The position numbers and the translations under genes are program-made. Of a stretch of DNA of 64,000 bases, positions 55,099 to 64,000 are shown piece by piece. The stretch lies in NCBI RefSeq assembly GCF_056746865.1, contig NZ_CM163382.1. The stretch is one strand, 5' to 3'. Each line of letters opens with the position of its first letter. Positions within the stretch are counted from its first letter, which is position 1. The notes under the pieces were generated by a model. It did not search any database, had not been told where the DNA came from, and saw only the letters and a program-made list of their open reading frames with translations.

Positions 55099-55112
55099 TT
55101 GATCAAAAACAA
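55099..55112. promoter_or_regulatory. FNR-like site TTGAT-caaa-AACAA upstream of ydfZ
   Basis: Read from sequence; 9 of 10 match to TTGAT-N4-ATCAA; -10-like TATTTA about 22 bp downstream. Confidence 0.35.
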
Positions 55113-62969: not shown

Positions 62970-63073
62970 AACAGTCACCAGAGAGTAGAGATGATTCTCA
63001 ATCATAGTAGCAAATACAGTACTTTACACGTTAAATGCTATGCTTAAAGAAGTTATCTTCGCGTAAGGAGCTT

Positions 63074-63382
63074 ATGATGAAACTCTCAACCTGCTGTGCC
63101 GCGCTTCTGCTCGCCCTCGCCTCACCCGCGGTACTCGCCGCGCCGGGATCCTGTGAGCGCATACAGAGCGATATATCACAGCGCATTATCAATAATGGCG
63201 TACCCGAAAGCAGCTTCACGTTAAGTATTGTACCCAATGACCAGGTTGATCAGCCTGATTCCCAGGTCGTCGGGCATTGCGCTAATGATACGCATAAAAT
63301 TCTCTACACCCGCACCACCAGCGGTAACGTCTCTGCTCCCGCGCAGTCTACCCAGGATGGCGCGCCTGCCGAACCGCAGTAA
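63074..63382 (+). CDS. ynfD: secreted DUF1161-family protein
   Basis: about 102 aa from MMKLSTCCAALLLALASPAVLA…. Confidence 0.8.
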   Translation: MMKLSTCCAALLLALASPAVLAAPGSCERIQSDISQRIINNGVPESSFTLSIVPNDQVDQPDSQVVGHCANDTHKILYTRTTSGNVSAPAQSTQDGAPAEPQ

Positions 63383-63467
63383 CACATTATCGACTGAACG
63401 CCGGATACGACACATCCGGCGATTTGAACATACAACATAATCCCACCTTATTACTCATACCCTTCTA

Positions 63468-63481
63468 TTGATATGGATTAA
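63468..63481. promoter_or_regulatory. FNR-like site TTGAT-atgg-ATTAA upstream of ynfE
   Basis: Read from sequence; 9 of 10 match to FNR consensus, about 100 bp upstream of ynfE ATG. Confidence 0.3.
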
Positions 63482-63580
63482 TAATTCTTAACCCAAAATG
63501 GGTAGACTCCCTCTATTGTTAGCGCGCTAAATATTCAATATATAAACTTTTATATAACGATAAAGATCAGGGAGTGAGTT

Positions 63581-64000
63581 ATGTCCAAAAATGAACAAAT
63601 GGTGGGCATCAGCCGCAGAACACTCGTTAAATCTACCGCGATAGGTTCTCTGGCGCTGGCTGCAGGCGGTTTTTCTTTACCGTTCACCCTGCGCAGTGCA
63701 GCGGCAGCGGTACAGCAGGCCAGCGAGAAAGTGGTCTGGGGTGCCTGTTCCGTCAACTGTGGTAGCCGCTGTGCACTTCGTCTGCATGTTAAAGATAATG
63801 AAGTGACCTGGGTGGAAACTGACAACACCGGCAACGACGAGTATGGCAATCATCAAGTACGTGCCTGTTTGCGCGGTCGCTCCATCCGTCGGCGTATTAA
63901 TCATCCCGATCGCTTGAATTACCCAATGAAACGCGTGGGCAAACGCGGCGAAGGCAAATTCGAACGGATTAGCTGGGATGAAGCCCTGGATACTATCGCC
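63581..64000 (+). CDS. ynfE: 5' part of Tat-exported molybdopterin oxidoreductase (DMSO/selenate reductase family catalytic subunit); runs off window end
   Basis: ATG at 63581 with GGAG RBS; twin-arginine signal (…ISRRTLVKSTAIGSLALAAGG…) then Cys cluster CSVNCGSRCALR; no stop before window end. Confidence 0.85.
   Translation, partial: MSKNEQMVGISRRTLVKSTAIGSLALAAGGFSLPFTLRSAAAAVQQASEKVVWGACSVNCGSRCALRLHVKDNEVTWVETDNTGNDEYGNHQVRACLRGRSIRRRINHPDRLNYPMKRVGKRGEGKFERISWDEALDTIA

What the first reader, a model, noticed from the sequence alone, without database searches (positions are those of the whole stretch)
63468..63580. FNR-like half-palindrome upstream of the Tat-exported molybdoenzyme gene ynfE
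TTGAT-atgg-ATTAA lies about 100 bp upstream of the ynfE start in an AT-rich leader, compatible with anaerobic control of the operon.
Basis: partly seen in the sequence, partly recalled or inferred. Interest (0 to 1): 0.25.

Follow-up and report, generated by a model that had tools for sequence, protein, structure and literature searches.

The report
Known FNR site of ynfE promoter
The flagged motif is the already-characterised binding site through which the oxygen sensor FNR switches on the E. coli ynfEFGH-dmsD selenate reductase operon without oxygen, so the finding is correct but not new.

Summary
TTGATATGGATTAA lies at window 63468-63481, centred 106.5 bp upstream of the ynfE ATG (63581), in the 198-bp ynfD-ynfE spacer of an E. 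coli chromosome. It matches the FNR core TTGAT-N4-ATCAA at 9 of 10 positions, so it is a full dyad with one weak arm, not a half-palindrome.

The motif alone is not significant: 6 one-mismatch matches in the window against 3.3 expected.
- The K-12 promoter is identical.
- Myers et al. 2013 list this exact 14-mer as the FNR site under a ChIP-seq peak, place it at -40.5 and class the operon as directly FNR-activated (about 37-fold lower in an fnr mutant).
- Xu, Busby and Browning 2009 is cited for FNR activation and NarL repression.
- Of 66 ynfD-linked loci from other genera, 60 keep a TTGA box at a fixed 34-35 bp from the -10. Background gives 4 of 614.

Between the box and the -10 (TAGACT, 63503-63508) lies a conserved NarL-type 7-2-7 element (63489-63504).

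One extra emerged: the leader carries a ModE-type operator (63536-63559) that I could not find reported for ynfE.

Verdict: already known, low interest.

The parts
63400..63420 (+). Hairpin GCCGGATACGACACATCCGGC followed by a short T-run (GATTT), just after the ynfD stop. Probably the ynfD terminator, which would insulate the ynfE promoter from upstream transcription.
   Evidence: Read directly from the sequence. Equivalent GC-rich hairpins occupy the same place in Citrobacter, Salmonella and Kosakonia. The simple terminator scan did not report it because the T-run is short. Function is inferred.
63468..63481 (+). FNR binding site TTGAT-ATGG-ATTAA, 9 of 10 to consensus, centred at 63474.5, which is about -40.5 from the TSS (class II position).
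   Evidence: sequence; the same 14-mer is listed as the ChIP-bound FNR site for ynfE in Myers 2013, supplementary file 6; site at -40.5, category 1 'directly activated'; conserved at fixed spacing to the -10 in 60 of 66 ynfD-linked loci; the Enterobacter variant is annotated as an FNR site.
63489..63504 (+). NarL/NarP-type 7-2-7 inverted heptamer pair TAACCCA-AA-ATGGGTA. The right heptamer read on the other strand is TACCCAT, a perfect TACYYMT. The left heptamer is degenerate in E. coli (5 of 7). This is the probable site of nitrate (NarL) repression and it overlaps the start of the -10.
   Evidence: across 73 loci the left heptamer scores at least 6 of 7 in 61 and the right in 64 (its GTA is fixed by the anchoring); the engineered high-affinity NarL site is TACCCCTAAAGGGGTA, and Salmonella ynfE has TACTCCCAAAGGGGTA. 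NarL repression of ynfE/ynfF is reported. Assigning repression to exactly these bases is my inference.
63503..63508 (+). -10 hexamer TAGACT. No usable -35 is present, as expected for an activator-dependent promoter.
   Evidence: TA is invariant by the anchoring, position 5 is A in 59 of 73 and position 6 is T in 49 of 73. It lies 35 bp after the start of the FNR box. One search finds no complete sigma70 consensus promoter.
63515..63515 (+). Inferred transcription start (A), from FNR centre 63474.5 plus 40.5.
   Evidence: One search gives the site at -40.5. The base lies 7 nt after the -10. I had no access to a primary TSS mapping, so the position is uncertain by about 2 nt.
63515..63523 (+). 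Conserved block ATTGTTAGC (A-T-Y-R-T-T-A-G-C) at the start of the transcript. Function unexplained.
   Evidence: TTAGC is nearly invariant in 21 sequences. TWAGC is found within 30 nt after the -10 start in 37 of 73 loci, at +14 to +18 in nearly all of them, and is absent from the Klebsiella/Raoultella and serS-linked loci.
63536..63559 (+). ModE-type operator candidate CAATATAT-AAACTTTT-ATATAACG (8-N8-8 palindrome), centred about +33 in the leader.
   Evidence: same geometry as the modA (CGTTATAT-N8-ACATAACG) and moaA (CGCTATAT-N8-ACATAGCG) operators, with 2 mismatches to their joint pattern; only match in the window, 0.16 expected; at most 3 mismatches at a fixed 32-33 nt from the ATG in 11 Escherichia, Citrobacter, Salmonella and Intestinirhabdus loci; dmsA and napF each carry a 2-mismatch site. 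Binding has not been tested.
63569..63577 (+). Shine-Dalgarno region AGGGAGTGA.
   Evidence: 0.86 mean conservation across the alignment.
63581..64000 (+). 5' end of ynfE (first 140 codons), with the twin-arginine signal S-R-R-T-L-V-K.
   Evidence: translation. (RefSeq annotation: selenate/tellurate reductase subunit YnfE).

Best explanation
Window 63468-63481 is the FNR operator of the class II, FNR-dependent ynfE promoter of E. coli.

Without oxygen, [4Fe-4S]-FNR dimerises and binds the dyad TTGAT-N4-ATTAA centred about 40.5 bp upstream of the transcription start (about 63515). There it overlaps the position of the missing -35 element and recruits RNA polymerase to the weak -10 TAGACT (63503-63508), switching on ynfEFGH-dmsD.

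When nitrate is present, phospho-NarL binds the 7-2-7-type element TAACCCA-AA-ATGGGTA (63489-63504), which lies between the FNR box and the -10 and overlaps the -10, and shuts the promoter off.

Shown by published experiments: FNR occupancy at this site, FNR-dependent expression and sigma70 recruitment, and nitrate/NarL repression of the operon. Inferred here: the exact NarL bases, the -10 assignment and the TSS to within about 2 nt.
For: - Sequence: present at the stated coordinates, 9 of 10 to the FNR core.
- Identity: the window is E. coli and the ynfD-ynfE spacer matches K-12 MG1655 at 195 of 198 positions, including every promoter element.
- Published site: Myers 2013 supplementary file 6 lists TTGATATGGATTAA at U00096.2 coordinate 1655980 for ynfE. 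This corresponds to the K-12 copy at NC_000913.3 1657956 once the offset between genome versions is allowed for.
- Published regulation: FNR ChIP-seq peak at 1,656,036, site at -40.5, category 1 'directly activated'. Sigma70 ChIP rises from 27 to 709 anaerobically, and the fnr-/WT ratio is 0.027 for ynfE, ynfF and ynfG.
- Later papers cite Xu/Busby/Browning 2009 for FNR activation and NarL repression. A ynfE promoter reporter fired only anaerobically and without nitrate.
- Conservation: 72 of 79 YnfE-like loci, and 60 of 66 ynfD-linked ones, have TTGA followed by GTA at +34/35. Only 4 of 614 background segments do.
- Footprint shape: the N4 spacer and the upstream flank vary while the half-sites do not.
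- Orthologue: the E. cloacae operon srnABCD carries ttgatgaggattaa, annotated as an FNR site, and selenate reduction there depends on FNR.
- Paralogue: the dmsA promoter has the same layout, TTGATACCGAACAA-TAATT...GTA at +34, with FNR at -41.5.
- Within the species: the two most divergent E. coli alleles examined leave both half-sites intact.
Against: - The bare motif is not enriched over chance in the window.
- The right arm lacks the consensus C (ATTAA, not ATCAA). Myers' PWM score of 13.0 is lower than most of the other scores visible in the excerpt of that table.
- I could not read the primary promoter dissection (Xu et al. 2009). The mutational proof for this box and the mapped TSS are therefore known to me only at second hand.
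- Myers' table marks 'previous experimental evidence of FNR binding: None' for ynfE.
- In the Klebsiella/Kluyvera/Raoultella clade the right arm is GATAA (about 6 of 10 overall). FNR dependence there cannot be assumed.
Confidence: 0.95

Rival explanations
1. The match is a chance occurrence in AT-rich spacer DNA, and the FNR dependence of ynfE is indirect or works through another site.
For: One-mismatch matches to TTGAT-N4-ATCAA occur 6 times in the window against 3.3 expected, which is not significant. The spacer is 64-71% A+T.
Against: The ChIP-seq peak and PWM site coincide with this 14-mer, and Myers reports only one FNR site for the operon. The box is conserved at fixed spacing to the -10 across more than 10 genera, against 4 of 614 in background. 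No other FNR-like box scoring at least 8 of 10 lies in the E. coli spacer (whose only hit there is this one).
Confidence: 0.02
2. The box is bound mainly by CRP, the other member of the CRP/FNR family, rather than by FNR.
For: CRP and FNR sites share the dyad geometry (5-N4/6-5) and the TGA core. This is general knowledge and was not tested here.
Against: The left arm reads TTGAT, the FNR-specific form, not GTGA as in the CRP consensus TGTGA-N6-TCACA (sequence; the consensus is from my knowledge). FNR ChIP enrichment and a 37-fold fnr dependence are documented.
Confidence: 0.01
3. The core promoter is not TAGACT with a TSS near 63515. It uses the conserved YATYRT hexamer TATTGT (63514-63519) with a TSS near 63526, which would put the FNR box near -51.5.
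For: YATYRT is conserved and keeps the A and final T typical of a -10.
Against: A centre at -51.5 is not a known activating position for FNR (my knowledge: class II at about -41.5, class I at -61.5 or further). Myers places the site at -40.5. The TA of TAGACT keeps an invariant 35-bp distance from the box.
Confidence: 0.04

Closest known systems
E. coli K-12 ynfEFGH-dmsD (ynfEFGHI) promoter as described by Xu, Busby & Browning 2009 and Myers et al. 2013
   Same: It is the same locus and the same sequence. The FNR box, NarL element, -10 and leader are identical base for base to K-12, and the published 14-mer is identical.
   Different: Nothing functional differs. The window's strain differs from K-12 at 3 of 198 spacer positions: two in the loop of the ynfD hairpin and one at 63566 just upstream of the SD.
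E. coli dmsABC P1 promoter (the paralogous DMSO reductase operon): FNR at -41.5, NarL repression, ModE dependence
   Same: - It has the same layout: FNR box, then TAATT, then a TACYYMT-type heptamer, then GTA at +34 starting the -10.
- FNR is at -41.5, against -40.5 for ynfE.
- A ModE-type 8-N8-8 element lies in the leader, 92 bp from the FNR centre in dmsA and 73 bp in ynfE.
- dmsA control by FNR and ModE is stated in PMC12096835.
   Different: The right FNR arm is AACAA in dmsA (C kept, T lost) but ATTAA in ynfE (T kept, C lost). The leader is 71 bp longer in dmsA. ModE control is documented for dmsA but not, in anything I could access, for ynfE.
Enterobacter cloacae SLD1a-1 srnABCD selenate reductase operon
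   Same: It is the orthologous operon, with the FNR box ttgatgaggattaa in the same place. The same variant occurs in my Enterobacter and Lelliottia loci.
   Different: The N4 spacer differs. The Enterobacter leader lacks the ModE-like palindrome.

Membership tests
FNR-activated class II promoter | Inverted repeat matching TTGAT-N4-ATCAA | tested here: met
   TTGATATGGATTAA matches at 9 of 10 positions. The left arm is perfect and the right arm has one mismatch. Myers' PWM score is 13.01.
FNR-activated class II promoter | Site centred about -41.5 from the TSS, overlapping the -35 region, with a -10 at the right distance | tested here: met
   The centre at 63474.5 lies 28.5 bp upstream of the first base of TAGACT. 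Myers gives -40.5. The 34/35-bp TTGA-to-GTA spacing is conserved in 72 of 79 loci. The TSS itself was not mapped here.
FNR-activated class II promoter | FNR occupies the site in vivo | not testable with these tools
   Taken from the literature: an FNR ChIP-seq peak at 1,656,036 and a site at 1,655,980 in K-12, whose sequence is identical.
FNR-activated class II promoter | Expression depends on fnr and on anaerobiosis | not testable with these tools
   Taken from the literature: fnr-/WT ratio of 0.027, sigma70 occupancy 27 to 709, and anaerobic-only reporter activity.
NarL-repressed promoter (7-2-7 heptamer site) | Two inverted TACYYMT heptamers separated by 2 bp | tested here: inconclusive
   In E. 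coli the right heptamer is perfect (TACCCAT on the other strand) but the left scores only 5 of 7 (TAACCCA). In most other genera both score at least 6 of 7. The consensus TACYYMT is from my knowledge.
NarL-repressed promoter (7-2-7 heptamer site) | Nitrate- and NarL-dependent repression | not testable with these tools
   Taken from the literature: (a NarXL mutant microarray for ynfF, and a reporter silent with nitrate).
ModE-molybdate operator | Palindrome of the type CGYTATAT-N8-AYATARCG, as in the modA and moaA operators | tested here: met
   CAATATAT-N8-ATATAACG matches 14 of 16 arm positions, which equals the sites I find at dmsA and napF. It is the only hit in the window. Salmonella and Citrobacter versions match 15 of 16. 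The pattern was defined by me from two operators, so it is not a curated model.
ModE-molybdate operator | ModE binds, and expression responds to molybdate or modE | not testable with these tools
   No report was found in the accessible literature. The two key papers (Studholme & Pau 2003; Kurata et al. 2013) are not held.

The most novel reading that the evidence does not exclude
Beyond the known FNR/NarL control, the ynfE leader carries a working ModE-molybdate operator (63536-63559, centred about +33). The selenate reductase operon would then be tied to molybdate supply as its paralogue dmsABC is.

The dmsA/ynfE-type operons of different Enterobacterales clades would have acquired or kept ModE operators at different positions: in the leader in Escherichia, Salmonella and Citrobacter, and 107 bp upstream of the FNR box in Rahnella and Ewingella.

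A second, smaller point: no ynfD-linked locus (0 of 60) has the consensus ATCAA right arm. This suggests selection for a deliberately weak FNR site.
Probability: 0.45. Interest if true: 0.3.

Novelty: already known. Interest (0 to 1): 0.08.

Why it matters
It confirms that a tool-less reading of raw sequence correctly located a real, experimentally supported regulatory site and even its TSS. Biologically nothing changes: FNR activation and NarL repression of ynfEFGH-dmsD are established.

The by-products have modest value:
- A cross-genus footprint fixes the promoter anatomy: FNR box, 7-2-7 NarL element, -10.
- It shows a systematic non-consensus right FNR arm.
- It points to a candidate ModE operator that would add molybdate sensing to the control of this selenate/tellurate reductase.
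- The ynfE promoter is already used as a gut biosensor trigger (PMC6561318), so an unrecognised molybdate input would matter for that use.

Tried and rejected
- A sigma70 consensus scan of 63000-64000 found no promoter. This is uninformative because the promoter depends on an activator and has no -35.
- Rfam (E-value up to 1) found nothing in 63300-64000, and the 5' leader folds no better than shuffles (z = +0.96). I therefore rejected a riboswitch or structured-leader reading of the conserved leader palindrome.
- I tried to read five papers: Xu et al. 2009 (PMC2681810), Studholme & Pau 2003 (PMC317290), Kurata et al. 2013 (DOI) and Bearson et al. 2002 (DOI and PMC116602). None is held. The mapped TSS, the mutational data and any earlier ModE-ynfE prediction could therefore not be checked.
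- Searches for a ModE-ynfE link returned only unrelated uses of the word 'mode', or papers that do not connect the two.
- My first count anchored on the ATG gave only 32 of 79 loci with the box at 95-115 bp. This understated conservation because leader length varies. Re-anchoring on the -10 gave 72 of 79.
- The 21-sequence alignment was built from loci chosen for having the box, so the invariance of its half-sites is partly circular. The unbiased control is.
- I considered ArcA, IHF and a second promoter for the conserved block ATTGTTAGC. None fitted convincingly, and it is left unexplained.
- Nine of the 'YnfE-like' loci turned out to be serS-linked, which is the dmsA genomic position. I separated them from true ynfD-linked loci.

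Full report
**1. What is there**

The window is an E. coli chromosome segment carrying rspA, ynfA, ynfB, speG, ynfC, ynfD and the start of ynfE (ORFs, RefSeq annotation of an identical strain). The finding lies in the 198-bp ynfD-ynfE spacer (63383-63580).

The motif TTGAT-ATGG-ATTAA is at 63468-63481 on the + strand. Its centre, 63474.5, is 106.5 bp upstream of the ynfE ATG at 63581. YnfE begins MSKNEQMVGISRRTLVK..., with a twin-arginine signal. The leader is 71% A+T, against 52% for the window. The one exception is the term 'half-palindrome': the site is a full dyad matching the FNR core TTGAT-N4-ATCAA at 9 of 10 positions.

**2. Is it more than chance?**

Not as a bare match. With one mismatch allowed the window has 6 hits against 3.26 expected, and 6 of 100 shuffles reach 6. 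The case rests on context.

**3. Identity with the characterised K-12 promoter**

The spacer is present in 5,293 of 5,426 complete E. coli genomes. It matches MG1655 at 195 of 198 positions. The three differences are two in the loop of the ynfD hairpin and one at 63566 just upstream of the SD. K-12 experiments therefore apply directly.

**4. Published evidence**

Myers et al. [quoted passage not shown] It reports a ChIP-seq peak centre at 1,656,036, one FNR site at -40.5, increased anaerobic sigma70 occupancy and increased anaerobic expression.

The supplement gives:
- the site sequence, TTGATATGGATTAA at 1655980, PWM score 13.01;
- a sigma70 ChIP signal of 27 aerobically and 709 anaerobically;
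- fnr-/WT expression ratios of about 0.026-0.027 for ynfE, ynfF and ynfG.

The K-12 copy of the motif lies at NC_000913.3 1657956. The 1,976-bp difference from 1655980 matches the known offset between the two MG1655 genome versions (my knowledge).

The dedicated promoter study (Xu, Busby & Browning 2009) is not held. Three papers cite it for FNR activation and phospho-NarL repression. One of them reproduced the behaviour with a ynfE promoter memory circuit, which was active only anaerobically and without nitrate.

**5. Phylogenetic footprint**

A scan of one genome per species returned 80 loci encoding proteins 79-97% identical to YnfE. Seventy-nine were usable, because one starts inside the gene.

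- Anchored on the ATG, 32 of 79 have TTGA-N6-TYAA centred 95-115 bp upstream. Leader length varies, so this undercounts.
- Anchored on the core promoter, 72 of 79 have TTGA followed by GTA exactly 34 or 35 bp later. Only 4 of 614 background 260-nt segments from the same loci do.
- Sorting by upstream neighbour gives 66 ynfD-linked loci (true ynfE context), of which 60 have the architecture. Nine are serS-linked (the genomic position of dmsA in E. coli), and all nine have it.

In an alignment of 21 sequences from about a dozen genera, the half-sites are nearly invariant while the N4 spacer (0.67) and the upstream flank (0.35) vary. Those 21 were chosen for having the box, so one search is the unbiased test.

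The 2025 study of Enterobacter cloacae SLD1a-1 annotates ttgatgaggattaa upstream of the orthologous srnABCD operon as an FNR site. Selenate reduction there is FNR-dependent. That variant is the one I see in the Enterobacter and Lelliottia loci.

Within E. coli, 3,055 of 5,293 genomes are identical over 63452-63531. The two most divergent alleles examined change neither half-site.

**6. Anatomy of the promoter**

In 5' to 3' order:
- ynfD hairpin, 63400-63420;
- FNR box, 63468-63481;
- 7-2-7 element TAACCCA-AA-ATGGGTA, 63489-63504;
- -10 TAGACT, 63503-63508;
- inferred +1 at 63515;
- conserved block ATTGTTAGC, 63515-63523;
- ModE-like palindrome, 63536-63559;
- SD AGGGAGTGA, 63569-63577;
- ATG, 63581.

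The right heptamer read on the other strand is TACCCAT, a perfect NarL heptamer. The left is degenerate in E. coli (5 of 7). Across 73 loci the left scores at least 6 of 7 in 61 and the right in 64.

Salmonella has TACTCCC-AA-AGGGGTA, nearly the engineered high-affinity NarL site TACCCCT-AA-AGGGGTA. Because the element sits between the FNR box and the -10 and overlaps the -10, NarL-P binding should exclude RNA polymerase. This is an inference, but it agrees with the reported nitrate repression.

The sigma70 scan finds no full promoter, as expected when the -35 is replaced by an activator site.

**7. Comparison with dmsA**

The paralogous dmsA promoter has TTGATACCGAACAA, then the same TAATT, a TACTCCT heptamer and GTA at +34. 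Myers places FNR there at -41.5. The two promoters are evidently homologous in design.

The right FNR arm differs in a consistent way:
- ynfD-linked loci have ATTAA (29), GATAA (18), GTTAA (11) and two others, never ATCAA;
- serS-linked loci have GACAA or AACAA.

**8. An extra: a ModE-type operator**

The leader sequence CAATATAT-AAACTTTT-ATATAACG has the 8-N8-8 geometry of the modA (CGTTATAT-TGTCGCCT-ACATAACG) and moaA (CGCTATAT-ACATGATT-ACATAGCG) sites, which I extracted from MG1655.

- Against the joint pattern CGYTATAT-N8-AYATARCG it has 2 mismatches.
- It is the only match in the 64-kb window, with 0.16 expected.
- The pattern was not trained on dmsA or napF. It nevertheless finds one 2-mismatch site in each of those ModE-regulated control regions.
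- Eleven loci (Escherichia, Citrobacter, Salmonella, Intestinirhabdus) have at most 3 mismatches at a fixed 32-33 nt from the ATG, six of them with a single mismatch. Enterobacter and the other clades lack it.
- Rahnella and Ewingella serS-linked loci carry sites with 0-1 mismatches about 107 bp upstream of their FNR box, just after the serS stop.

The leader RNA is unstructured (z = +0.96) and matches no Rfam family. This favours a DNA-level protein site.

I found no paper linking ModE to ynfE, but the two most relevant papers are not held. I therefore rate it a plausible, untested operator whose novelty is uncertain.

**9. Verdict**

The feature is already known: the ynfE FNR site. Interest is low. 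The most novel reading that remains open is the ModE operator in the leader.

Noticed in passing
window 63536-63559: An 8-N8-8 palindrome, CAATATAT-AAACTTTT-ATATAACG, in the ynfE leader matches the modA/moaA ModE operator pattern at 14 of 16 arm positions. It is the only such match in the window. It is conserved at a fixed distance from the ATG in Escherichia, Salmonella, Citrobacter and Intestinirhabdus. I found no published ModE-ynfE link in the accessible literature.
   Followed up: yes
window 63515-63523: The block ATTGTTAGC (A-T-Y-R-TTAGC) at the predicted transcript start is conserved in about half of the YnfE-like loci (37 of 73). It is absent from the Klebsiella/Raoultella and serS-linked loci. 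No regulator or RNA element could be assigned.
   Followed up: partly
window 63477-63481 and loci L003-L082: The downstream FNR half-site is never the consensus ATCAA in any of the 60 ynfD-linked loci that have the promoter (ATTAA 29, GATAA 18, GTTAA 11). The dmsA-position loci use RACAA instead. This suggests a conserved, deliberately sub-optimal FNR site, or an overlapping constraint such as a -35-like TTAATA.
   Followed up: partly
L008, L017, L025, L034, L043, L049 and others (about 95-105 bp upstream of the ATG): In the Klebsiella/Kluyvera/Raoultella/Pseudocitrobacter clade the box is TTGACCNGGGATAA, embedded in a longer perfect palindrome (for example TTATCCCTGG-TTTGA-CCAGGGATAA). It is a poor FNR match (about 6 of 10). 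It could be a different regulator's site or a hairpin.
   Followed up: no
L088 (E. coli H20 strain MIN6, NZ_CP069692.1), corresponding to window ~63495-63503: An IS1A element is inserted between the FNR box and the -10 of ynfE, with a target duplication around CCAAAATGGGT. It separates the activator site from the core promoter and probably silences FNR-dependent expression in that strain.
   Followed up: partly
L072, L075, L078, L079 (Rahnella, Ewingella), for example L079 1184-1207: Perfect or near-perfect ModE-type operators (CGCTATATACTTTACAATATAGCG) sit just after the serS stop codon and before the serS terminator hairpin, about 107 bp upstream of the FNR box of the downstream YnfE/DmsA-like operon.
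   Followed up: partly
L065, L069, L070, L072, L073, L075, L078, L079, L082: Proteins 79-83% identical to E. coli YnfE in Serratia, Rahnella, Ewingella and Budvicia are encoded downstream of serS, the dmsA position in E. coli, and not downstream of ynfD. Sequence similarity to YnfE therefore does not track genomic context in these genera.
   Followed up: partly
window 7693, 23677, 45244, 55099, 58447: Five other one-mismatch matches to TTGAT-N4-ATCAA occur in the window. TTGATCAAAAACAA at 55099-55112 is the 14-mer listed for ydfZ among the ChIP-bound FNR sites in Myers 2013, supplementary file 6, so it is probably another genuine FNR site in this window.
   Followed up: no
window 63400-63420: The hairpin after ynfD (GCCGGATACGACACATCCGGC) differs from K-12 at two loop positions and has only a short T-run. 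It was missed by the simple terminator scan.
   Followed up: no
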